Positions 2,334-57,516 of a DNA stretch of 64,000 nucleotides are shown in pieces. This DNA comes from Planctomycetota bacterium (lineage in GTDB: Bacteria; Planctomycetota; Planctomycetia; Pirellulales; PNKZ01). Every line of letters starts with the position of its first letter. Position 1 is the stretch's first letter. The translations under genes and the position numbers were made by a program. Under the pieces are notes generated by a model. That model worked only from the letters and a program-made list of their open reading frames with translations. It did not search any database and had not been told where the DNA came from. The DNA is taken from contig JAFEBQ010000012.1 of the NCBI GenBank assembly GCA_018242585.1, forward strand, positions 148,563 to 212,562. Reading direction: 5' to 3'.

Positions 2334-3659
2334 ATGACCAAGCACTCGCCCGCCAATCGTCGCCAATTTCTCGGTTCCACGTTGGCCGCGGCCGCCGGCG
2401 CGGCGACGCCCTACTTCATGAGTTGGCCCGCCTTTGGCGCCGACGCCAGCTTGCCCAAGTCGAAAAATGACCGCTTTGGCATTGGCTCGATTGGCCTGCG
2501 CTATCAAGGTTCGGTGATCACGCGCCAGTCGTTGCCCCACGGGGACGTGGTCTGCATTGCCGACGTCGATAAGGACATCGGCGGCCAGGCGATCGCCTCG
2601 TTCGGCGGCACGCTGGTCGAGGATTATCGCAAGCTACTGGACCGGAAAGATGTCGACGTGGTGCTGATCGCCACGCCTGACCATTGGCACACCAAGATGG
2701 TTATCGACGCCTGCCGCGCCGGCAAAGACGTCTATTGCGAAAAGCCGATCACGCTGACGGTTGACGAAGGGAAGCTGCTGCGTAAGGTCGTCAAGGAAAC
2801 GGGGCGCGTGGTGCAGGTCGGCACGTGGCAGCGGAGCGATTGGAAGTTCCGCCTGGCTTGCGAGCTGGTCCGCGCCGGTCGCGTCGGCAAGTTGCACACC
2901 GTGACCGTCACGACCAGCCCAAACCCAGTCGGGGGGCCGTTCGAGGTGACCAAGCCCTACGCGAACCTGAACTGGGACATGTGGCAGGGTCAGACGCCCG
3001 ACGTCCCGTACATTCGCGAGCGCTGCCACTACACCTTCCGCTGGTGGTATGAATACTCCGGCGGCCAGCTTACCGACTGGGGCGCGCACGGCATCGACAT
3101 CGCCCACTGGGGGATCGGTTGCGACTCGTCCGGGCCACTCGAGATCAACGGCTATGCCGACGTGTTGCCCAACGATCCAAACAGCTACAACGTGCCGCCG
3201 ACGTTCCAGGTCGACTACAAGTACGCTGGCGATGTGACCTTGAAGATTCGCTGCGACGGGCGGGCGGGCATCTTGTTCGAAGGGGACCAGGGGCGAATCT
3301 TCGTCAACCGCGGCACCGTGGCCGGCAAGGCCGTTGACGAGTTGAAAGACAACCCGCTGCCGCACGAGCAGTTCAAGCTCTACGGCTTTGACAACCGCGA
3401 ACGTCCCGAGCGGACGGGCAAGCTCGACGCCATTGTCAATCACATGGGGAACTTCTTCGACTGCGTGAAGGCCCGCAAGACGCCCATTTCGGACCTGGAA
3501 AGCCAGCACCGGGTGGCGACGACGTGTCATCTGGGGAATATTTCCATTCGGCTCCGTCGTCCGCTAAAGTGGAACCCGGAAACCGAGCTGTTCGTCGGCG
3601 ACGACGAGGCGAACGGCTGGCTGCGCCGCGAGCAGCGGAAGAAGTACGCGATTACGTAA
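2334..3659 (+). CDS. Gfo/Idh/MocA family oxidoreductase with twin-arginine signal peptide
   Basis: Tat motif NRRQFLGSTLAAAAGAA. Rossmann region DVVLIATPDHWH followed by DVYCEKP. AGGAG lies about 10 nt upstream of the ATG. Confidence 0.85.
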   Translation: MTKHSPANRRQFLGSTLAAAAGAATPYFMSWPAFGADASLPKSKNDRFGIGSIGLRYQGSVITRQSLPHGDVVCIADVDKDIGGQAIASFGGTLVEDYRKLLDRKDVDVVLIATPDHWHTKMVIDACRAGKDVYCEKPITLTVDEGKLLRKVVKETGRVVQVGTWQRSDWKFRLACELVRAGRVGKLHTVTVTTSPNPVGGPFEVTKPYANLNWDMWQGQTPDVPYIRERCHYTFRWWYEYSGGQLTDWGAHGIDIAHWGIGCDSSGPLEINGYADVLPNDPNSYNVPPTFQVDYKYAGDVTLKIRCDGRAGILFEGDQGRIFVNRGTVAGKAVDELKDNPLPHEQFKLYGFDNRERPERTGKLDAIVNHMGNFFDCVKARKTPISDLESQHRVATTCHLGNISIRLRRPLKWNPETELFVGDDEANGWLRREQRKKYAIT

Positions 3660-3762: not shown

Positions 3763-4647
3763 ATGCGCGCCGCGATCTACTCGTTGGGATTTATGCTCGC
3801 CTTCACGTCACTTGCCACGGCACAGGATCCCGCCATGTTGAATCTGCATCTGCGCTCGCGCACCGGCGGGATGAACGCCGAGGCCAAGTCGGAAATCGTC
3901 GAGAAGAAGGTCGTCTGGGATCCGTTGAAGACGGCGTTCATTGTCTGCGATATGTGGGACGCCCACTGGTGCCAGGGAGCGGCCGATCGCGTGGTCGAGT
4001 TGGCCGGGCCGATGAACCGGATGATCGGCAAAGCCCGCGATAAGGGCTGCCTGATCATTCACGCGCCGAGCTCGTGCATGGACTTCTACAAGGACTCGCC
4101 GGCGCGGTTGATCGCGCTGTCGGCGCCGTACAGCAAGCCGCCGATCGAGCTGTCGAAGCTCGAGCGTTGGGGAACCGCCTGGTGCTATCCCGATCCGCAG
4201 CGCGAGCCGGCCATTCCGATCGACGATTCTGACATGGGTTGCGACTGTGCCAAAAAGTGCGCGCAGGGGCATCCTTGGAAACGCGAGATCGACACGCTCA
4301 AGATCGACACCGGCGACGCGCTGACCGACAACGGGCAAGAGACTTGGAACCTGCTGACGGCGCAAGGCATCGACAACGTGGTGCTCTGCGGCGTCCATTT
4401 GAACATGTGCGTCCTGGGGCGGCCGTTCGCCATTCGCCAGATGGTCAAGCTGGGCAAGAACGTGGCCCTGGTCCGCGACATGACCGACACGATGTACAAC
4501 CACGAAATGTCGCCGCACGTCAGCCACTTTGAAGGGACCGACCTGATGATCGGCCACGTCGAGCGCTACTGGTGCCCAACATTCACGAGCAGCGACCTGA
4601 CCGGCGACCCGCCGTTCCGGTTCAAGGAAGACCCGCGCGGGAAATAG
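3763..4647 (+). CDS. Secreted isochorismatase-like cysteine hydrolase family protein
   Basis: Signal peptide MRAAIYSLGFMLAFTSLATAQD. Isochorismatase-like blocks are FIVCDMWDAHWC, LIIHAPS and VVLCGVHLNMCVLGRPFAIRQ. I moved the start to the in-frame ATG at 3763, downstream of the terminator. Confidence 0.7.
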   Translation: MRAAIYSLGFMLAFTSLATAQDPAMLNLHLRSRTGGMNAEAKSEIVEKKVVWDPLKTAFIVCDMWDAHWCQGAADRVVELAGPMNRMIGKARDKGCLIIHAPSSCMDFYKDSPARLIALSAPYSKPPIELSKLERWGTAWCYPDPQREPAIPIDDSDMGCDCAKKCAQGHPWKREIDTLKIDTGDALTDNGQETWNLLTAQGIDNVVLCGVHLNMCVLGRPFAIRQMVKLGKNVALVRDMTDTMYNHEMSPHVSHFEGTDLMIGHVERYWCPTFTSSDLTGDPPFRFKEDPRGK

Positions 4648-9250: not shown

Positions 9251-9311
9251 AGCGCTCTTCAAATTTCGTTGTAGTCGTCGATCTAGTGATCGATGTCAGG
9301 AAGTGAGTATT

Positions 9312-9491
9312 CTTTTCCGTAGCCCAGGCGTTCACGCCTGGGATTGCCGCGCCGAAAAATGCCGGTAGCCCGGTTCACCGGGCTTTCACGTACCCCAGCG
9401 GTGCGGTCACCGATAAGCCCCGTAGAACGGGGCTGAAATGCTGAAAACTCTTGCGTTCGCCCCAGGCGTAAACGCCTGGGCTACGGAAAAG
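9312..9491. repeat. 180-bp MITE/BIME-like unit bounded by 31-nt terminal inverted repeats
   Basis: The left end 9312-9342 is cttttccgtagcccaggcgttcacgcctggg. The reverse complement of 9461-9491 is cttttccgtagcccaggcgtttacgcctggg (30/31 identical). Each end is itself a hairpin, and the core holds two more hairpins (cccggttcaccggg, ccccgtagaacgggg). Confidence 0.6.
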
Positions 9492-9619
9492 TGTCAGCGT
9501 CATATCGTCACTCACACGTGTCACTGCACAGATGGCATCGATGGATAGATCGACCGGAAATGTGCCAATCTCGGCCGTTATTCCCGTGCAGGCCAGAACC
9601 CAGTTGGATCGTCGCACGC

Positions 9620-9924
9620 CTAGATTCCCGCCTGCGCGGGAATGACGGAACCTGGGCTAGTGCGCGTCTCACCACGTTATCGTGTCTGAGGTGGCACCGA
9701 TGGCTTGGCCATCGGTGTTGCGCAGCAACAAGAAACTCGATGGGCACGCGCAACCCAAATGGAAACTCGCCACCGGCTCGGGCCGGCGCTCGAGGTTTCT
9801 TGTGGCCTTCGGCCACCCAGGTGCAAGCACCTGGGCCACCCACGCAGGCCGTCATTCCCGCGCAGGCGGGAATCTAGTGGTTGCGGTTACCCTCTAGATT
9901 CCCGCCTGCGCGGGAATGACGGAA
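9620..9924. repeat. Three copies of a 29-nt palindromic REP-like unit ctagattcccgcctgcgcgggaatgacgg
   Basis: The 29-nt unit sits at 9620-9648 (plus orientation), 9849-9877 (inverted) and 9894-9922 (plus orientation). The plus-orientation copies continue with 'aa' (to 9650 and 9924). All three are identical over 29 nt and share the internal hairpin attcccgc/gcgggaat. Confidence 0.7.
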
Positions 9925-47843: not shown

Positions 47844-47916
<73 letters not shown>

Positions 47917-47921
47917 CTGGC

Positions 47922-47998
47922 TTGTCAGTTGTCCGTGGTCAGTTGCACTCCAATGGAACGCCTTTCGCAACTGACAACTGGCCACGGACAACTGACAA
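47922..47998. repeat. Long hairpin of the TTGTCAGTTGTCCGTGG repeat family directly after tRNA-Ala
   Basis: The left arm is 47922-47946 and the right arm 47967-47998. Pairing is 17 bp plus 8 bp perfect, with a 7-nt bulge and a 20-nt loop. No U-run follows. Confidence 0.65.
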
Positions 47999-51317: not shown

Positions 51318-54300
51318 ATGAGCAAGCGCCACCAAGCAGATCGACGAGGCTTCGCGGTTCGCGCAACGACGGCGTTCGGCTTTTGTGCGTTGCTGCTCGG
51401 TGCGGTGTTGTTCAACGGAGTGGGGTTCGTAGTCCAGGCGGCCGAAGAGCCCGCCGCGCCGCCAGCCAATCCGCCGGTCGTACAGGCTCAAGAGAACACC
51501 TCCCCCGAGGCGCTGGCTCAAGCCGAGCGGTTTTTTGAAAGTAAGATTCGCCCGGCGCTGCATGAGCATTGTCTGAAGTGTCACGGCGCCGAGAAGCAAA
51601 AAGGTGGCCTGCGTCTCGACACGCTTGGCGCGATGCTTACGGGCGGCGACTCCGGCGCGGCCATCGTGCCGGGCGATGTAGCGCACAGCCCGCTGATTCA
51701 AGCAATCGAGTACGGCGAAGACTTCGTCCAGATGCCGCCGAGCAAGAAGCTCCCCGAGGGGGTGATCGCCGACTTCCGCACCTGGATCAAGTTGGGCGCT
51801 CCCTGGCCCGGAGCGGAAAAGGAAGCGGCCGCCGCCCGCCCGCAACCCAAATCGAAAGACATCACCGACGAAGATCGAAAGTATTGGGCCTATCAACCCG
51901 TCCGCCAGCCCAAGTTGCCGAAGAGCGCCCGCGCGGGCTGGGACACCAACCCGATCGACATGCTGATCGACGCGCGACTGCAAGCCAAAGGCCTCGCGCC
52001 GAACCCGCGGGCCAGCAAGGTCCAACTGATTCGCCGCGCGTATTTCGATCTGATCGGTTTGCCGCCGACGCCCGAGGAAGTGGCCAAGTTCGTGGCCGAT
52101 GAATCTCCCGGGGCGTTTGCCCGCGTGATCGACGATTTGCTTGCCCGGCCGCAATACGGCGAGCGTTGGGCGCGCCACTGGCTTGACGTGGTTCGCTACG
52201 CCCAATCGAACGGCTATGAACGCGACAGCGAAAAACCCTTCGCCTGGCGCTATCGCGATTACGTGATTCGCTCGTTGAACGCCGACAAGCCTTACCATCA
52301 GTTCTTGCTCGAACAGTTGGCCGGTGACGAACTGGACGAAGTCACCGACGATAGCTTGATCGCCACCGGCTACTACCGGCTGGGCGTGTGGGACGATGAA
52401 CCCGACGACGCGCGGATGGCCGAGTTCGACGCGCTGGACGATGTGATCGTGACGACCGGAGCGGCCATGCTGGGCATGACCGTCGGCTGTGCCCGCTGCC
52501 ACGATCATCGGCTCGATCCAATTCCGCAAACCGATTACTACCGGCTGCTGGCGTTCTTTCGTAACGTGCGCCCCTTTGACGGCAACCGCGCGACCGAAGG
52601 GGCCTCGGGGTTCTTGCCTCTGGGAGATCGCGAGCGCGCGGCGCAACACTTTGCCGCCGTCAACGAGCGGATCAAGCCGCTGGAAGAGCAAATCAAAACG
52701 GCCAATGAGAAGACCAAGAAAGCGCTGCGCAAAGAGATCGACCGGCTGCGCAACGACGCCGGCGCTAAAGTCGAGTGGGCCCTTTGCGTGCGCGAGCGCG
52801 GCGATCAACCGACCCATGTTCTCATCCGCGGCAATTCCGGCTCGCCCGGCGAGGAAGTGCAGCCGGGCTTTCCCACGGTGCTGGGAAGCGCGACGCCCGA
52901 GATTAGCAAGCCGAAGTCCGGCGCATCGAGCGGTCGCCGATTGGCGCTGGCCCGCTGGATCACCGATCCGAGTCATCCGCTGACCGCTCGCGTGATGGCG
53001 AACCGCGTGTGGCACTATCACTTTGGCCGCGGTATCGTCAAAACGACGACCGATTTCGGCCACGGCGGGCAACTGCCCACTCATCCCGAGCTGCTCGATT
53101 GGCTGGCCAGCGAGTTCCAGCAGTCGGGCTGGTCGATCAAACGGCTGCATCGCTCGATCATGCTCAGCGAAGCGTACCAGATGTCGTCGCGAGCTGATCG
53201 CGCCGACGCGCTGGCCGCCGATCCGGCGAACGATCTGTTCTGGCGACAGAACCTGCGACGACTGGAAGCCGAGACGATTCGCGATTCGATCTTGGCCGTC
53301 AGTGGCCAATTGAAAGACGTGCCGGGAGGTCGCGGGTTCTTTCCGCACCTCGGGGGCGAAGTGCTGGCCGGTGGTTCGCGCCCCGGCGACGGCTGGGCCA
53401 CGTCGACGCCGCGCGAGCAATCGCGGCGGAGCATCTACGCCTTTATCAAGCGCTCGATGGTGCCGCCGATCTTCGAAGGGTTCGACTACGCCAACACCGC
53501 GGCCCCGCTGGGCGAGCGCCCGACCACGACCGTCGCGCCCCAGGCGCTGATGCTGCTGAACGACCGTTTCGTCCAGGACCAGGCGACGGCCCTGGCGCGG
53601 CGCATTGTCGAGTCGAAGCCGGACACCGCCAGCAATGACCCCGATGTCCAGATTCAGCGCCTGTTTCAATTGACGCTCAATCGAGCACCGACCGAGCGCG
53701 AGCGGCAAGCGGCGCTCGAATACCTGGACCGCCAGACTGGCGCTTACGCGCTCCTGGAATCGCGGCTGACATTCGCTCCCGACGTGCCGTTGTCGCTGCA
53801 CCGCAGCTACTTGGACAAGTTGCAGCCGGCCGACATTCTGATCGGTCCACGACAGGGGTGGAACTTTTATCGCGGCCGCTGGACCGGCGGCTATGAAGGG
53901 ATCATGACCGTCGAACGCCAGCGCGGGCCGTTTGCCCTTTGGTTGGGGCCGGCGTTCGCCGATGGAACGATCACGGCAAATGTCACGCTGCAAAATGCCG
54001 TCGAGTTCGGCTCGTTGATCTTCCGCGCGGCCGCCGAAGGAGAAGTTTTCCGCGGCTATGAAGTCGAGCTGAACGCCCGCGAGCAGTCGATCGCCCTGCG
54101 GCGTCACGGGGCGGATGTGACGCTGCTGGCCAATGTCGACGCGGTGCTGCCGGTGGGCAAGCCGATGCCGGTGAAGATCGAGGTACGCGGCGCGCAGATT
54201 CGTGTTTTTGTCGCGCACGAGCGCGAACCGCTAGTCGAGGTGACCGATCCGCAGCCGTTGCGCGACAGTGGTCGCTTGGGCGCGCGGTCGTGGGGCGCCG

Positions 54301-55025
54301 CGATGCACTTGGATAATCTAAAGGTTCACGCCGACGGGCGCGTGTTGGACGTGGCGCGAATGACACCTGCGGCCGAGGCCGGCGCGCCGAGCACGACGCC
54401 ACCGGCGGGTTGGCGACTGTACGGCGGTCGCTGGCAATTGCACGACGACAGCTACACGGCCGAACCGTCGCCAGGGGCCAAGGCTGTCTGGGACGGCGGC
54501 CCGCTGGCCGACGGTGTGATCGAGGCCGACTTCAAATTGCTTGCGCCGGGTGGCGACGCGGGGCTGGTGCTGCGTGTGTCGCAGCCGACCGACGGGGTCG
54601 ACGCGCTGAATGCCTATAATATCAACTTTCAGCCCGGCGCGCTCCGGCTGGGCAAGCATCGCAACAACTGGAAACAGTTGGTGCGCGTGCCATTGGACCT
54701 GGGCGTCGATCGCTGGCACCACGTGCGCGTGGACCTGGCCGGCGACCGAATCAAGATCACGATCGACAGGGCCGAGAAGCCGCAAATCGATTACACCGAC
54801 GAGCAGCCCTTGCCGCCGGGGAATGTCGGCTTGCGAACGATGAACGCGAAGTTCGTGACGAAGAACCTGACGGTGACGGCGGGTGGCAAAACGACACTCG
54901 CTGAGTTCAAGCCAACGAAGACCGAGCCTGTGGCCGTCGTCGCTGGCCCCACGCCGCGCGAGCGCGCCCTGGCGTCGTTGTGTTTGTTGATGTTTAACTT
55001 GAATGAGTTTGTCTACGTGGATTGA
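51318..55025 (+). CDS. Planctomycete cytochrome-c (PSCyt) / DUF1549 / DUF1553 protein with two inserted concanavalin-like (DUF1080-type) modules
   Basis: It has a signal peptide and the heme-binding block CLKCHGAEKQKGGLRLD. The DUF1549 block is RRAYFDLIGLPPTPEEV, and the DUF1553 blocks are CARCHDHRLDPI and the terminal LMFNLNEFVYVD. Two modules of about 170 aa begin GWNFYRGRW and GWRLYGGRW. Confidence 0.9.
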   Translation: MSKRHQADRRGFAVRATTAFGFCALLLGAVLFNGVGFVVQAAEEPAAPPANPPVVQAQENTSPEALAQAERFFESKIRPALHEHCLKCHGAEKQKGGLRLDTLGAMLTGGDSGAAIVPGDVAHSPLIQAIEYGEDFVQMPPSKKLPEGVIADFRTWIKLGAPWPGAEKEAAAARPQPKSKDITDEDRKYWAYQPVRQPKLPKSARAGWDTNPIDMLIDARLQAKGLAPNPRASKVQLIRRAYFDLIGLPPTPEEVAKFVADESPGAFARVIDDLLARPQYGERWARHWLDVVRYAQSNGYERDSEKPFAWRYRDYVIRSLNADKPYHQFLLEQLAGDELDEVTDDSLIATGYYRLGVWDDEPDDARMAEFDALDDVIVTTGAAMLGMTVGCARCHDHRLDPIPQTDYYRLLAFFRNVRPFDGNRATEGASGFLPLGDRERAAQHFAAVNERIKPLEEQIKTANEKTKKALRKEIDRLRNDAGAKVEWALCVRERGDQPTHVLIRGNSGSPGEEVQPGFPTVLGSATPEISKPKSGASSGRRLALARWITDPSHPLTARVMANRVWHYHFGRGIVKTTTDFGHGGQLPTHPELLDWLASEFQQSGWSIKRLHRSIMLSEAYQMSSRADRADALAADPANDLFWRQNLRRLEAETIRDSILAVSGQLKDVPGGRGFFPHLGGEVLAGGSRPGDGWATSTPREQSRRSIYAFIKRSMVPPIFEGFDYANTAAPLGERPTTTVAPQALMLLNDRFVQDQATALARRIVESKPDTASNDPDVQIQRLFQLTLNRAPTERERQAALEYLDRQTGAYALLESRLTFAPDVPLSLHRSYLDKLQPADILIGPRQGWNFYRGRWTGGYEGIMTVERQRGPFALWLGPAFADGTITANVTLQNAVEFGSLIFRAAAEGEVFRGYEVELNAREQSIALRRHGADVTLLANVDAVLPVGKPMPVKIEVRGAQIRVFVAHEREPLVEVTDPQPLRDSGRLGARSWGAAMHLDNLKVHADGRVLDVARMTPAAEAGAPSTTPPAGWRLYGGRWQLHDDSYTAEPSPGAKAVWDGGPLADGVIEADFKLLAPGGDAGLVLRVSQPTDGVDALNAYNINFQPGALRLGKHRNNWKQLVRVPLDLGVDRWHHVRVDLAGDRIKITIDRAEKPQIDYTDEQPLPPGNVGLRTMNAKFVTKNLTVTAGGKTTLAEFKPTKTEPVAVVAGPTPRERALASLCLLMFNLNEFVYVD

Positions 55026-55035
55026 TGGAAGAGGT

Positions 55036-55064
55036 GGGGGCGTGGGGGTGTTGGGGGGTGGGGG
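55036..55064. repeat. G-run tract (four runs of 5-6 G) upstream of the four-helix-bundle gene
   Basis: ggggg c gt ggggg tgtt gggggg t ggggg. It is the imperfect inverted counterpart of the CCCCCACT array at 55513-55544 and fits a G-quadruplex-type pattern. Confidence 0.7.
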
Positions 55065-55095
55065 AGCAAAGGACTTGCTGTACTGAGGCACTACG

Positions 55096-55506
55096 ATGAG
55101 CGACGAAGTGCGAAATGGAATTGGGAAGCCGGGGATAGTCAAGAAGCACACCGAGCTCGACGTCTATCGATTGGCTTTCGATGCAGCGATGCAGTTATTC
55201 GAGTTAACCAAGAACTTCCCACGTGAGGAAACGTATTCGCTGACAGATCAGGTGCGGCGATCGTCTCGCTCGGTTTGCGCAAACCTGGCCGAAGCGTGGC
55301 GGAAACGGCGCTATCCGGCAGCATTTACCAGCAAACTCTGCGAATGCGAGGCGGAAGCCGCTGAAACGCAAACCTGGCTCCAATTCGCCGTCGAATCGAA
55401 TTACCTCGACCGCGATCAAGCCAGGCCGCTCTATCAGAATTACGACAGAATCATGGCGATGCTGGTGACAATGATCCAACACGCCGAGGATTGGAACGTC
55501 AAATGA
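55096..55506 (+). CDS. Four-helix-bundle protein (the family first found in 23S rRNA intervening sequences)
   Basis: 136 aa. LDVYRLAFDAAMQLFELTKNFPREETYSLTDQVRRSSRSVCANLAEAWRKRRYPAAFTSKLCECEAEAAETQTWLQFA is the family pattern. GAGG lies 7 nt upstream of the ATG. Confidence 0.85.
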   Translation: MSDEVRNGIGKPGIVKKHTELDVYRLAFDAAMQLFELTKNFPREETYSLTDQVRRSSRSVCANLAEAWRKRRYPAAFTSKLCECEAEAAETQTWLQFAVESNYLDRDQARPLYQNYDRIMAMLVTMIQHAEDWNVK

Positions 55507-57035
55507 CTCACCCCCCCACTCCCCCACTCCCCCACTCCCCCACTTCAGCCTGCACCGGCAGTCGGCGGGAGTTTCTCTGGCAGATCGGCGCTGGCTTCGG
55601 CGGCGTGGCGCTGAGCGCCATGTTGCAACAGGACGGCTTCTTCGGCGCGCTTGGCTCGCGGGCCCAGGCCGCCGAGTTGGCCGCGGCCGGCGGTGCGCCG
55701 AATCTGTCGGCGGGACCGCTCGCGCCGCGGATCGCCCATTTCCCGGCCAAGGCCAAGTCGTGCATCTTCTTGTTCATGTATGGCGGCCCGTCGCAGATGG
55801 ACTTGTTCGACTACAAGCCCGAACTGCAAAAGCGCGACGGCCAGGAAGTGCCGATGGAAATTCGCCGCCGCAGCGTCAAGCCGTCGAAGCTGTTGGCCAG
55901 CAAGCGCAAGTTCGCCCAACATGGCGAGTCGGGGCAGTGGTGCTCGGACGCGCTGCCGAACCTGTCGCAACACATGGACAAGCTGGCGGTGATCAAATCG
56001 CTATACTCCGACTCGTTCATTCACGGCTCGGCCATGTTGCAGATGAACTCGGGACGCATCTTGCAAGGCTACCCGTCGATGGGCTCTTGGCTGGGCTATG
56101 GCCTGGGGACGGTGAATCAGAACCTGCCGGGCTACGTGGTGATGTTGGACCCGCGCGGCGGGCCGATCAGCGGGGCGATGAACTGGTCGGCGGGGTTCAT
56201 GCCGGCGGCTTACCAGGGGACCGTATTCCGCGCCAGCGGCCAGCCGATCCTAAACCTGGGCTCGACCGCCGGCGACACGGCCGCCATGCAGCGCGACCAG
56301 ATCGACACACTGAACGCGATGAACCAGCAGCACCTCCTCGGCCGGCCGGGCTATAGCGAGCTGCAAGCGCGAATCGCCAGCTATGAGCTGGCGTTTCAGT
56401 TGCAGACGACCGCGCCCGAGGCGTTGGACCTGGCCGAGGAAAGCGAAGAGACCAAGACGATGTACGGCCTGTACGACGAGCCGGGGGACCACTCGTTGAC
56501 GGTTGGGCCGGCGCCGTTTGGGCGGCAATGCCTGATCGCGCGGCGGCTGGTCGAGCGTGGCGTGCGGTTCGTCCAGATCTATCACGGCGGCGGGCATCAG
56601 CAGCAAAACTGGGACGCCCACTTCGGCGTGGAAGAGAACCTGAAAATCCATTGCCCCGAAATCGACAAGCCGATCTCGGGTTTGCTGGCTGACTTGGACC
56701 GGCGCGGCCTGCTGGACGAGACGTTGGTGATCTGGGGTGGCGAGTTCGGTCGCCAGCCGGTCGTGCAAGGTACCGGCGACGGTCGCGATCACAACCCCAA
56801 GGGGTTCACCTACTGGTTGGCTGGCGGCGGCGTGAAGCGCGGCTTCAGCTACGGCGAGACCGACGAGCTGGGGCACGAAGCGACGGTCAATCGGCACCAT
56901 ATCCGCGACCTGCACGCAACGATCTTGCACCTGTTGGGACTCGACCATCACAAGCTGACGTACTTCTACGGCGGGCTGAATCACAAGCTGACCGGCGTGG
57001 TCGAAGCCGAGGTAATTCGTGAGTTGCTAGCGTGA
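55503..57035 (+). CDS. DUF1501 (sulfatase-fold) protein with Tat signal
   Basis: Tat motif SRREFLWQIGAGFGGVAL and the DUF1501 block VIWGGEFGRQP. The ATG at 55503 overlaps the upstream stop (ATGA). The track start at 55491 is also possible. Confidence 0.85.
   Translation: MTHPPTPPLPHSPTSACTGSRREFLWQIGAGFGGVALSAMLQQDGFFGALGSRAQAAELAAAGGAPNLSAGPLAPRIAHFPAKAKSCIFLFMYGGPSQMDLFDYKPELQKRDGQEVPMEIRRRSVKPSKLLASKRKFAQHGESGQWCSDALPNLSQHMDKLAVIKSLYSDSFIHGSAMLQMNSGRILQGYPSMGSWLGYGLGTVNQNLPGYVVMLDPRGGPISGAMNWSAGFMPAAYQGTVFRASGQPILNLGSTAGDTAAMQRDQIDTLNAMNQQHLLGRPGYSELQARIASYELAFQLQTTAPEALDLAEESEETKTMYGLYDEPGDHSLTVGPAPFGRQCLIARRLVERGVRFVQIYHGGGHQQQNWDAHFGVEENLKIHCPEIDKPISGLLADLDRRGLLDETLVIWGGEFGRQPVVQGTGDGRDHNPKGFTYWLAGGGVKRGFSYGETDELGHEATVNRHHIRDLHATILHLLGLDHHKLTYFYGGLNHKLTGVVEAEVIRELLA
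55513..55544. repeat. Four perfect tandem copies of CCCCCACT
   Basis: Four 8-nt copies at 55513-55520, 55521-55528, 55529-55536 and 55537-55544. They lie inside the first codons of the DUF1501 ORF and are translated PPTPPLPHSPT. Confidence 0.8.
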
Positions 57036-57041
57036 GAGTTG

Positions 57042-57126
57042 GTCCGTTGTCAGTTGTCCGTGGTCCGTTGTTGGGATGGAAGAGTTCACGCTCGGTGGCA
57101 ACGGACCACTGACAACGGACATTTTT
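57042..57126 (+). terminator. Intrinsic terminator of the DUF1501 gene, built from the GTCCGTTGTCAG repeat family
   Basis: Arms 57042-57070 and 57099-57120 pair over 12 bp plus 10 bp with a 7-nt bulge. ATTTTT follows at 57121-57126. Confidence 0.65.
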
Positions 57127-57444: not shown

Positions 57445-57516
57445 GGCTCCGTAGCCAAGTGGCTAAGGCAGCGGATTGCAAATCCGCCATCGTGAGTTCG
57501 ACTCTCACCGGAGCCT
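57445..57516 (+). tRNA. tRNA-Cys (anticodon GCA)
   Basis: Hand-folded: acceptor GGCTCCG/CGGAGCC, anticodon stem gcgga/tccgc with loop ttGCAaa, T-arm gtgag-ttcgact-ctcac, discriminator U. Confidence 0.9.

What the first reader, a model, noticed from the sequence alone, without database searches (positions are those of the whole stretch)
55036..55544. Four-helix-bundle gene looks like an inserted cassette flanked by inverted G5-run / C5-run repeats between the DUF1553 and DUF1501 genes
The DUF1549/1553 and DUF1501 genes normally form an adjacent pair. Here a 136-aa four-helix-bundle gene sits between them. This family was first seen inside 23S rRNA intervening sequences and is often scattered in genomes. 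Its G+C is lower than the surroundings, at 30/60 in the one line I counted (55141-55200).

It is bracketed by four G5-6 runs (55036-55064, starting 11 nt after the upstream stop) and by four perfect tandem CCCCCACT units (55513-55544). These are the reverse complements of each other's unit (GTGGGGG versus CCCCCAC). Both tracts fit a G-quadruplex-type pattern on opposite strands.

The downstream tract has been absorbed into the 5' end of the DUF1501 ORF, where it encodes PPTPPLPHSPT ahead of the Tat motif. The arrangement suggests a small mobile or recombination-prone cassette.
Basis: partly seen in the sequence, partly recalled or inferred. Interest (0 to 1): 0.55.

Follow-up and report, generated by a model that had tools for sequence, protein, structure and literature searches.

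The report
rRNA-intron-like gene cassette inside an operon
A small four-helix-bundle gene, bracketed by two complementary runs of 8-base repeats, has been inserted between two normally adjacent genes; the same design surrounds this gene family across many bacterial phyla and in the intervening sequences of ribosomal RNA genes, which gives a long-mysterious family a testable handle.

Summary
Window 55031-55066 (GTGGGGGN units) and 55509-55546 (CCCCCACT units) are 8-nt tandem arrays. They form a 34-nt inverted repeat, 85% complementary and unique in the window, around a PF05635/TIGR02436 four-helix-bundle (4HB) gene at 55096-55506.

Four orthologous DUF1553-DUF1501 junctions are empty (12-54 nt gaps). 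One keeps only the 3' arm and the last ~12 codons of a 4HB gene. Two hold ParD/ParE-like genes. So this is an insertion.

It is not a local oddity. In 60 of 70 homologous loci from at least seven phyla, the 4HB gene is bracketed the same way:
- a purine-rich tandem array upstream (period 8, median about 4.5 copies);
- its reverse complement downstream.

The unit differs between loci but matches between the two arms. Arms stay with the gene across unrelated contexts. A genuine 23S rRNA intervening sequence (Azospirillum) and the published Coxiella one share the design.

My reading is an IVS-type hairpin-loop cassette living in an mRNA operon. It is co-transcribed, looped out by a long stem that is a likely RNase III substrate, and it now supplies the DUF1501 start codon. 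The G-quadruplex pattern is real here but is not the conserved property (18 of 71 loci). How the cassette moves is unknown.

The parts
51318..55025 (+). Upstream host gene (PSCyt1-DUF1549-DUF1553-3-keto-disaccharide hydrolase domains, 1235 aa). Its stop codon lies 5 nt before the 5' arm.
   Evidence: ORF list. Pfam hits PF07587, PF07583, PF07635 and PF06439. Orthologs of the same architecture sit next to DUF1501 in L082, L091 and L092.
55031..55066 (+). 5' arm: about four tandem 8-nt units, GTGGGGGC GTGGGGGT GTTGGGGG GTGGGGGAG. It also matches a G4-type pattern.
   Evidence: Direct repeat family D2 and inverted repeats I1-I3. TRF period 8, 3.9 copies. Unique in the window. Pairs with the 3' arm in the RNA minimum-free-energy fold.
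55085..55088 (+). Shine-Dalgarno-like GAGG, 7 nt upstream of the 4HB start codon.
   Evidence: Read from the sequence. Inference only.
55096..55506 (+). Four-helix-bundle gene (136 aa) of the 23S-rRNA-IVS-protein / S23p / Avd-like family. It carries the RxxxSxxxNxxE motif.
   Evidence: PF05635 at 102 bits. TIGR02436 at 98.8 bits. PDB relatives 2gsc and 2rld, each deposited with five chains. Motif present. G+C 54% and GC3 65% against GC3 of 78-86% in the neighbours.
55503..55506 (+). ATGA overlap: the DUF1501 start codon (55503-55505) overlaps the 4HB stop codon (55504-55506).
   Evidence: Sequence. The public annotation of the 510-aa DUF1501 protein starts here. No other start codon lies upstream of the twin-arginine motif (read).
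55509..55546 (+). 3' arm: 4.5 tandem 8-nt units (CACTCCCC / CCCCCACT), the reverse complement of the 5' arm. It encodes residues 3-14 (HPPTPPLPHSPT) of DUF1501.
   Evidence: D1 and I1-I3. TRF period 8, 4.5 copies, 96% matches. Translation. A degenerate copy is retained in L081.
55503..57035 (+). Downstream host gene, DUF1501 (510 aa) with Tat signal SRREFLW. Homology to empty-site orthologs resumes at about 55551.
   Evidence: PF07394 at 503 bits. Ortholog N-termini. Junction alignment A1.
57037..57121 (+). Gene-less hairpin built from tandem 7-nt units (GTCCGTT/GTCAGTT) and their complement, followed by TTTTT, directly after the DUF1501 stop. It is a probable operon terminator and has the same 'tandem-repeat-armed hairpin' design without a cargo gene.
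   Evidence: Inverted repeat I10. TRF 57042-57071. Sequence. RNA fold -52.1 kcal/mol, z = -5.4.
47920..47998 (+). Sister hairpin of the same heptamer family, directly after tRNA-Ala (47844-47917).
   Evidence: Inverted repeats I5 and I14. Sequence. tRNA. RNA fold -49.5 kcal/mol, z = -7.9.

Best explanation
The element at 55031-55546 is a non-ribosomal copy of the kind of cassette known from 23S rRNA intervening sequences (IVS). It is a promoter-less four-helix-bundle (S23p/Avd-like) gene carried in the loop of a long hairpin. The hairpin arms are short tandem repeats, G/purine-rich on the 5' side in the sense strand and the exact complement on the 3' side.

Shown:
- It was inserted into the tight DUF1553-DUF1501 junction. 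The junction is empty in relatives, and one relative carries a decayed copy.
- It points the same way as the operon and has no promoter or terminator of its own.
- Its 3' end now provides the start codon (ATGA overlap) and the first 14 codons of DUF1501.
- The architecture (period about 8, about 4.5 copies, arms hugging the ORF) is shared by most relatives in many phyla and by true rRNA IVSs.
- The arms travel with the gene.

Inferred:
- The cassette is transcribed as part of the operon mRNA.
- The two arms pair into a stem of about 34 bp that loops the cassette out of the transcript.
- As in rRNA IVSs, this stem is a substrate for RNase III or otherwise controls processing and translation.
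- The purine-rich 5' units act as Shine-Dalgarno-like ribosome landing sites, which the 3' arm can sequester.
- DUF1501 is translated by re-initiation coupled to 4HB termination. Active translation and stem formation would then be mutually exclusive.

How the cassette moves between sites is not known.
For: Insertion. Empty orthologous junctions are seen in L082/83, L091, L092 and L095. The remnant is L081. The composition is foreign.

Stem. A 34-nt inverted repeat. The full 541-nt RNA fold pairs the arms, z = -4.2. The arms joined by a tetraloop fold at -76.8 kcal/mol.

No promoter, terminator or Rfam family lies in 54700-55800.

Family-wide design.
- Inverted-repeat score of 12 or more in 60/70 loci against 3/350 control positions.
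- Period 8 in 55/79 upstream and 54/79 downstream flanks, with median 4.6 and 4.4 copies.
- Purine fraction 0.80 upstream and 0.14 downstream.
- Arms end a median 9 nt before the start and begin 10 nt after the stop.
- At least 20 flank-to-flank pairs in the RNA fold for 65/71 cassettes against 35/142 controls.
- The upstream neighbour is co-directional in 60/69 loci, with a median gap of 46 nt.

Arms travel with the gene. Cassettes at 75% or higher aa identity in different contexts have arm similarity 14, against 8 for unrelated pairs, p = 1e-12.

SD-like words are enriched upstream and anti-SD-like words downstream.

True IVS comparators. Azospirillum 23S rRNA (L090) has a 4HB ORF flanked by GACGGAT GACAGAG GACGGAG GACAGAA and its complement. 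The Coxiella IVS has a 28-bp terminal stem, tandem GACAGAT heptamers before the S23p start, and RNase III cleavage shown in vitro (PMC4990558).
Against: (1) Mismatches between arms show no excess of G:U (91) over A:C (86). There is therefore no direct signature of selection on the sense-strand RNA helix. Complementarity could be kept at the DNA level.

(2) In this locus, RNase III cleavage inside the stem would cut DUF1501 mRNA between its start codon and codon 15. Simple 'excision' would be costly here.

(3) No target-site duplication, recombinase or reverse transcriptase was found. The nearest protein relative is only about 73% identical, so nothing shows recent movement.

(4) 11 of about 70 sampled loci, plus the window, sit inside PSCyt-type two-gene modules. 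This could mean a functional partnership rather than a selfish insertion.

(5) The SD enrichment statistic is inflated because repeats are not independent.

(6) Two distant family members on plasmids (30-36% identity) lack clear arms.
Confidence: 0.6

Rival explanations
1. A DNA-level mobile element. The arms are recombination or transposition substrates (terminal inverted repeats, or a cruciform/hairpin recognised in single-stranded DNA). They are kept complementary by template switching or arm-to-arm gene conversion. Any RNA structure is incidental.
For: There is no G:U over A:C bias in arm mismatches. Arms and gene move together across contexts. Gene-less hairpins of the same design occur at other intergenic sites, like miniature derivatives of an autonomous element. 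Copy number of units varies between close relatives.
Against: Arms differ between copies even within one assembled genome: L009 has GGAGTGCA and L057 has GAAAGTGA/GAGGGTGA. That argues against a sequence-specific transposase. The near-universal polarity, purine-rich arm upstream of the gene in the sense strand (0.80 against 0.14), is not expected from a strand-symmetric DNA process. No duplication of the target is visible against empty sites. No recombinase is in the cassette.
Confidence: 0.2
2. A resident accessory gene of PSCyt-type operons, not a selfish insert. The 4HB protein works with these two-gene modules. The repeats evolved in place as a translational control device, with tandem SD-like sites masked by an anti-SD-like 3' arm.
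For: Nine loci have the gene between a PSD/PSCyt3-type gene and DUF1552, and two more have the reverse order. The window has it between DUF1553 and DUF1501. SD-like and anti-SD-like words are enriched in the arms. There is an ATGA overlap with the downstream gene.
Against: Most orthologous DUF1553-DUF1501 junctions lack it. The 69 upstream neighbours fall into 52 unrelated clusters. The same design occurs inside rRNA, and the gene occurs inside cas operons (PMC3936711). The gene's composition is foreign. The same junction hosts ParD/ParE-like modules in other lineages, which fits a hitch-hiking site.
Confidence: 0.12
3. A G-quadruplex / i-motif switch. The G5 runs (sense strand) and C5 runs (G5 on the antisense strand) fold into four-stranded structures that regulate transcription or recombination at this junction.
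For: The 5' tract fits G5-N3-G5-N4-G6-N1-G5, and the 3' tract is its C-rich mirror.
Against: Only 18 of 71 related cassettes have a G4-type motif upstream, and 10 of 71 on both sides. The commonest units (AAGGTGAC, AAGGAGAC, AATGAGAC) cannot form G4. The predicted duplex between the arms is very stable, -76.8 kcal/mol, and would compete with it.
Confidence: 0.04

Closest known systems
ORF-containing intervening sequences of 23S rRNA genes (Leptospira, Coxiella burnetii helix 45; here also Azospirillum lipoferum 4B, locus L090)
   Same: Same protein family in the loop. Terminal inverted repeats close a long stem right at the ORF borders. The 5' arm is made of short purine-rich tandem repeats: GACAGAT heptamers in Coxiella (PMC4990558) and GACRGAN heptamers in L090. 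There is no own promoter, and the cassette is transcribed as part of the host RNA.
   Different: The window copy sits between two protein-coding genes of an operon, not in rRNA. Its units are 8 nt and G-run based. Its 3' arm is translated as part of the downstream protein. RNase III cleavage, shown in vitro for Coxiella, is untested here.
Avd, the accessory protein of diversity-generating retroelements (bAvd of Bordetella phage BPP-1)
   Same: A homologous four-helix-bundle fold family (PF22296 and NF033474 give weak hits; homology discussed in PMC10053308). The solved relatives 2gsc and 2rld were each deposited with five chains.
   Different: Scores are below both curated cut-offs (32.1 against 40; 25.5 against 80). 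The genes on either side are DUF1553 and DUF1501, not a reverse transcriptase; template and variable repeats were not searched for.
Miniature palindromic intergenic repeats (MITE/REP-type elements; cyanobacterial STRR heptamer repeats, which also occur inside RNase P RNA genes: Vioque 1997, title seen)
   Same: Gene-less hairpins with tandem-repeat arms occur at intergenic sites in the same loci and in the window. They relate to the 4HB cassette as miniature elements relate to an autonomous one. STRR repeats likewise lie inside the gene for a structured RNA.
   Different: Arms are not conserved in sequence between copies. No transposase or RAYT-type partner is known. The link between these hairpins and the 4HB gene is my inference.
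Integron gene cassettes
   Same: A single promoter-less ORF, co-oriented with its neighbours, expressed by read-through, and associated with an imperfect inverted repeat.
   Different: An attC site lies only at the 3' end of a cassette and needs an integrase. Here the repeat brackets the ORF, and the immediate neighbours are not an integrase.

Membership tests
PF05635 / TIGR02436 four-helix-bundle protein (23S rRNA IVS protein, S23p) | Profile match above the curated cut-off over the full domain | tested here: met
   PF05635 at 102.2 bits against 33.8, profile positions 2-105 of 106. TIGR02436 at 98.8 bits against 24.
PF05635 / TIGR02436 four-helix-bundle protein (23S rRNA IVS protein, S23p) | Conserved motif GxxRxxxSxxxNxxE (described in PMC3936711) | tested here: met
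   RxxxSxxxNxxE is present in 78 of 79 sequences, including the window protein as RSSRSVCANLAE.
PF05635 / TIGR02436 four-helix-bundle protein (23S rRNA IVS protein, S23p) | Four-helix bundle assembling into a pentamer | not tested
   Only sequence similarity to 2gsc (E = 6.5e-10) and 2rld, each deposited with five chains. No structure was predicted.
23S rRNA intervening sequence (IVS) element | Lies within a helix of the 23S rRNA gene | tested here: not met
   No Rfam match in 54800-55800. The flanks are protein-coding genes. The comparator L090 does lie in 23S rRNA.
23S rRNA intervening sequence (IVS) element | Terminal inverted repeats forming a stem that encloses the S23p ORF | tested here: met
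   34-nt arms, 85% complementary. Paired in the RNA fold.
23S rRNA intervening sequence (IVS) element | Excision of the element from the transcript by RNase III | not testable with these tools
   Shown in vitro for Coxiella (PMC4990558). Here the only support is a predicted near-continuous duplex of more than 30 bp.
Diversity-generating retroelement (Avd component) | Avd profile above cut-off, adjacent reverse transcriptase, and template/variable repeats | tested here: not met
   NF033474 at 25.5 bits against 80. PF22296 at 32.1 bits against 40. The neighbours are DUF1553 and DUF1501.
Transposon / MITE with terminal inverted repeats | Terminal repeats conserved between copies in one genome, and a target-site duplication | tested here: not met
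   Two copies from one assembled genome have different units (L009 and L057). No duplication is evident against the empty sites, but the 18-19% protein divergence blurs the boundaries.
G-quadruplex-forming sequence | Four runs of G3 or more with loops of 1-7 nt | tested here: met
   G5-N3-G5-N4-G6-N1-G5 at 55036-55064, with the C-rich mirror at 55511-55541.
G-quadruplex-forming sequence | Actual folding, and conservation of the motif among homologous elements | tested here: not met
   The conservation part fails: 18 of 71 upstream and 10 of 71 on both sides. Folding itself is not testable with these tools.

The most novel reading that the evidence does not exclude
The 4HB gene with its tandem-repeat arms may be the autonomous form of a widespread, cross-phylum class of hairpin-loop elements.

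- Gene-less derivatives would be the tandem-repeat hairpins seen at intergenic sites, and perhaps short rRNA IVSs and STRR-type repeats.
- The ring-shaped, Avd-like pentamer would bind the roughly 4-5 tandem units of its own arm.
- That binding would drive either processing or copying of the element, for example through an RNA intermediate and a host reverse transcriptase.
- The element would insert wherever a stem can loop it out harmlessly: the tips of rRNA helices and stop-start junctions of operons.

This would explain the origin of rRNA intervening sequences and give the family a function.
Probability: 0.2. Interest if true: 0.85.

Novelty: new variant of a known kind. Interest (0 to 1): 0.62.

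Why it matters
The S23p / four-helix-bundle family is large. It has 6,807 clusters at 50% identity with E <= 0.001, and all 8,000 candidates scored in the first search passed E <= 1e-5. It has had no assigned function since it was found in rRNA intervening sequences in 1993.

Genes of this family have been noticed wedged inside operons, for example between cmr3 and cmr2 (PMC3936711), and read as functional partners of their neighbours.

The present analysis suggests a simpler common denominator: a self-contained hairpin-loop cassette with co-varying tandem-repeat arms, the same in rRNA and in mRNA operons. I found no description of this in the searched literature.

If it holds, three things follow.
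- It warns against guilt-by-association annotation of these genes.
- It links rRNA IVSs to a general class of elements.
- It offers direct experiments: RNase III mapping, protein-repeat binding, and insulation of downstream translation.

For this locus, it also shows a host gene (DUF1501) that has become dependent on the insert for its start codon.

Tried and rejected
- Rfam scan of 54800-55800 at E <= 1 gave nothing.
- The promoter and terminator scan found no promoter. The single terminator-like hit, on the minus strand, is within the number expected from shuffles (1 found, 1.4 expected).
- PADLOC defence models gave no hit.
- A search for further 4HB genes or remnants in the window found none (tblastn).
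- The test for G:U over A:C bias, meant to assign the pairing to sense RNA, showed no bias: 91 against 86.
- I checked the idea that the family belongs to the HEPN superfamily. The HEPN survey (PMC3710099) does not mention it, so I dropped it.
- The idea that the arms pre-exist at the target is rejected for this locus. Empty sites have 12-54 nt of unrelated sequence.
- I tried to read Ralph & McClelland 1993 and 1994 and Vioque 1997. None is held.
- Distant plasmid-borne members were ambiguous. L088 (36% identity, next to cas1-cas2) and L089 (30%) have one-sided repeats and no clear inverted pair. The claim is therefore limited to the sampled subfamily (56% identity or higher) plus two true IVSs.
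- No formal covariation test was run. Tandem-repeat arms cannot be aligned column by column between loci.
Full report
**1. What is in the window**

The upstream gene (51318-55025) carries PSCyt1, DUF1549, DUF1553 and a 3-keto-disaccharide-hydrolase domain. The downstream gene is DUF1501. Between them lies a 136-aa ORF (55096-55506). It matches PF05635 at 102 bits against a cut-off of 33.8, and TIGR02436 at 98.8 bits against 24. It gives only sub-threshold hits to the two Avd models.

Tandem Repeats Finder reports two period-8 arrays: 55034-55064 (GTGGGGGC-type, 3.9 copies) and 55509-55544 (CACTCCCC, 4.5 copies). They form a 34-nt inverted repeat, 85% complementary. The motif occurs nowhere else in 64 kb: 6 matches, all in the two tracts, against 0.82 expected from shuffles, none of which reached 6.

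The gene is compositionally distinct. It has 54% G+C and GC3 of 65%, against GC3 of 78% and 86% in its neighbours.

The 4HB stop overlaps an ATG (ATGA, 55503-55506). That ATG is the annotated start of the 510-aa DUF1501 protein, MTHPPTPPLPHSPTSACTGSRREFLW. I see no other start codon upstream of the twin-arginine motif. The 3' arm is therefore translated.

No promoter-like site and no Rfam family lie in the region, and the one terminator-like hit (minus strand) is within the number expected from shuffles.

**2. It is an insertion**

I took the closest DUF1501 orthologs (79-82% identity) and looked up their contigs.

| Locus | State of the junction |
|---|---|
| L082/L083 | Empty, 12 nt between the genes; divergent ROK regulator upstream |
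| L091 | Empty, 54 nt; divergent ROK regulator upstream |
| L092 | Empty, 31 nt; divergent ROK regulator upstream |
| L095 | Empty, 19 nt |
| L081 | Remnant of the cassette |
| L084, L093/L094 | 1.2-1.4 kb insert with ParE- or ParD-like ORFs |
| Window | Full cassette |

The empty junctions have no 4HB gene and no repeats.

L081 (82% identity) is the informative intermediate. It has no 4HB gene and no G-rich arm. Yet its DUF1501 starts with TCAAATGACTCACCCCCGCACCCCCGCACCCTCACCCCCCGACACC. That is the same ATG context followed by degenerate C-rich octamers. It is preceded by about 40 nt that read, in the 4HB frame, MISNAKRWVLK*. The window reads MIQHAEDWNVK*. I read L081 as a deletion derivative that kept the part of the cassette on which DUF1501 now depends.

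So the junction is a place where small self-contained modules lodge.

**3. The flanking repeats are a property of the gene family**

A scan of one genome per species returned 80 loci encoding relatives at 56-72% identity. They come from Planctomycetota, Verrucomicrobiota, Chloroflexota, Acidobacteriota, Cyanobacteria, Bacteroidota and others. For each locus I aligned the 120 nt upstream of the start with the reverse complement of the 120 nt downstream of the stop.

- The inverted-repeat score was 12 or more in 60 of 70 loci. It reached that in 3 of 350 equally spaced control positions in the same loci (median 19.5 against 7).
- The arms are tandem arrays. TRF finds period 8 in 55 of 79 upstream and 54 of 79 downstream flanks, with median 4.6 and 4.4 copies. 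At a strict autocorrelation threshold, period 8 occurs in 23/71 and 19/71 flanks against 1/395 controls.
- The arrays are polar. The purine fraction is 0.80 upstream and 0.14 downstream, in the sense of the gene.
- The arms hug the ORF. The 5' arm ends a median 9 nt before the start, the 3' arm begins 10 nt after the stop, and the median arm length is 35 nt.
- The unit differs between loci: AAGGTGAC, AAGGAGAC, AATGAGAC, GGGGAAGA, GGAGTGCA and others. The window's CGTGGGGG is unique in the sample. The two arms of each locus match each other.
- RNA folding predicts at least 20 flank-to-flank pairs in 65 of 71 cassettes, against 35 of 142 controls.

**4. Arms travel with the gene**

Close relatives have related units, with copy-number differences. 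I then took cassettes whose proteins are at least 75% identical but whose neighbours are not homologous. Their arms are significantly more alike than those of unrelated pairs (median score 14 against 8, p = 1e-12). One example is L017, binned as Thermoguttaceae, against L050, binned as Thermodesulfobacteriota. Both use GGAGACAA. Bin assignments of metagenome-assembled genomes can be wrong, but the contexts are different in any case.

Two copies from one assembled genome (L009, L057) use different units. This argues against a sequence-specific transposase.

**5. Context**

These figures rest on my own greedy ORF calls. The upstream neighbour is co-directional in 60 of 69 loci, with a median 46-nt gap that the 5' arm essentially fills. 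The downstream neighbour is co-directional in 48 of 70.

Neighbours are diverse: 52 clusters among 69. Even so, nine loci lie between a PSCyt1-PSD3-PSD5-PSD4-PSCyt3-PSD2 gene and a DUF1552 gene, and two more have the reverse order. That module is the sister of the DUF1553/DUF1501 pair. I cannot tell whether this reflects a preferred niche, shared descent of a three-gene block, or function. I keep it as evidence for a rival reading.

**6. The same design in true rRNA intervening sequences**

A tblastn hit on an Azospirillum lipoferum replicon fell in a stretch with no listed genes. Rfam shows it to be a complete 23S rRNA gene (L090, 828-4026). About 1,160 nt into the rRNA there is a 4HB ORF. 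It is bracketed by TCAGAGGACGGATGACAGAGGACGGAGGACAGAAAG and its complement, 36 nt with tandem GACRGAN heptamers.

The Coxiella IVS paper reports the same features. The IVS lies in helix 45. It has a 28-bp terminal stem. Tandem GACAGAT heptamers, variable in number between strains, sit just upstream of the S23p start. RNase III cleaves within the stem in vitro (PMC4990558).

Cyanobacterial plasmid copies L085 and L087 also have arms. L086 has arrays of 150-200 nt. Two distant members at 30-36% identity do not show a clear pair.

**7. Gene-less hairpins**

In at least nine of the fetched loci there are hairpins at other intergenic sites. Each has a purine-rich tandem-octamer arm, a short loop and the complementary arm. 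In L032 and L006 they use nearly the same unit as the neighbouring cassette.

The window has two such hairpins of one heptamer family. One is at 47920-47998, right after tRNA-Ala. The other is at 57037-57121, right after the DUF1501 stop and followed by TTTTT. They may be miniature derivatives of the cassette, or simply terminators built in the same style. This was not resolved.

**8. How it most likely works**

The following points are shown. The cassette is an insertion. It is co-oriented with the operon and lacks a promoter. Its arms are strongly complementary. It supplies the DUF1501 start. The design is shared with rRNA IVSs.

The rest is inferred. In the operon transcript the arms would pair; joined by a tetraloop they fold at -76.8 kcal/mol. 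That stem would loop the cassette out, as IVS stems do in pre-rRNA, and would be a plausible RNase III substrate.

The 5' units resemble Shine-Dalgarno sequences and the 3' units resemble the 16S 3' end. SD 4-mers number 652 against 473 +/- 23 in shuffles. Anti-SD 4-mers number 596 against 416 +/- 20. Both statistics are inflated by repetition. The stem could therefore mask the 4HB ribosome-binding region.

The ATGA overlap suggests that DUF1501 is made by re-initiation after 4HB.

Two results limit this picture. Arm mismatches show no G:U excess, 91 against 86 A:C. And cleavage inside the stem would sever the DUF1501 start from its body at this locus. Translation and stem formation may be alternatives here. 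The polarity of the arms argues for a strand-specific role at the RNA or translation level. The absence of wobble bias leaves room for maintenance of complementarity at the DNA level.

**9. The G-quadruplex idea**

The pattern is satisfied here. But only 18 of 71 relatives have it upstream and 10 of 71 on both sides. It is a by-product of this copy's unit, not the conserved feature.

**10. Comparison with what is known, and novelty**

The protein is a member of PF05635/TIGR02436. The element fails the defining location of an rRNA IVS but shares its anatomy. It is not a DGR Avd.

Literature searches found the Coxiella description and a report of these genes wedged inside cas operons (PMC3936711). 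They found no account of the flanking tandem inverted repeats outside rRNA. The library is incomplete, and three key older papers could not be read.

I class the window feature as a new variant of a known kind. The family-wide pattern is the more interesting result.

Noticed in passing
L084 4891-5556 and L093/L094 3884-4937: In two other lineages the orthologous DUF1553-DUF1501 junction holds a 1.2-1.4 kb insert with small ORFs. One matches ParE toxin (L084) and one matches ParD antitoxin (L093). The same junction therefore collects different small selfish modules.
   Followed up: partly
L018, L021, L036, L052, L056, L064, L067, L069, L076 (about 3900-4450); also L005, L008: Nine 4HB cassettes lie between a PSCyt1-PSD3-PSD5-PSD4-PSCyt3-PSD2 gene and a DUF1552 (HXXSHH) gene, in Planctomycetota and Verrucomicrobiota. 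Two more lie in the reverse order. This is the sister module of DUF1553/DUF1501. The enrichment is unexplained.
   Followed up: partly
window 47920-47998 and 57037-57121: Two hairpins of one family built from tandem heptamers (GTCAGTT/GTCCGTG and complement). One follows tRNA-Ala (47844-47917). The other follows the DUF1501 stop and is followed by TTTTT. They are gene-less counterparts of the tandem-repeat-armed design.
   Followed up: partly
window 9277-9922: A cluster of near-perfect palindromic repeats, for example CCGTCATTCCCGCGCAGGCGGGAATCTAG at 9620-9648, 9849-9880 and 9891-9922, plus a 31-nt pair at 9312/9461. They look like a REP-like intergenic repeat family, unrelated to the cassette.
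   Followed up: no
window 57445-57516: tRNA-Cys (GCA) lies in the lower-G+C stretch downstream of the DUF1501 operon.
   Followed up: no
L086 1755-1955, 2400-2545, 2690-2780 (Oscillatoria nigro-viridis PCC 7112 plasmid): Very long arrays surround this 4HB gene. About 200 nt of GGGAGAGT-type octamers lie upstream and about 150 nt of similar purine-rich repeats directly downstream. The complementary CTCCCACT array comes only about 300 nt further on. This layout is R-gene-R...Y rather than R-gene-Y.
   Followed up: partly
L006 about 2175-2270, 2645-2720, 3512-3604: In this Schlesneria assembly the 4HB gene has a complete hairpin (purine arm, loop, pyrimidine arm) on each side. A third, nearly identical hairpin lies about 900 nt downstream, before the next gene. 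It reads as a string of intercistronic hairpins.
   Followed up: partly
L088 1-2378 (Pseudanabaena galeata plasmid): A distant family member (36% identity) sits directly after cas1-cas2. This fits the published note that these genes occur inside cas loci. It has only two GGGGGAT units upstream and no clear inverted partner.
   Followed up: no
L046 1-60: A run of about 52 G at the contig end, upstream of the 4HB gene. It is probably a sequencing or assembly artefact rather than a real arm.
   Followed up: no
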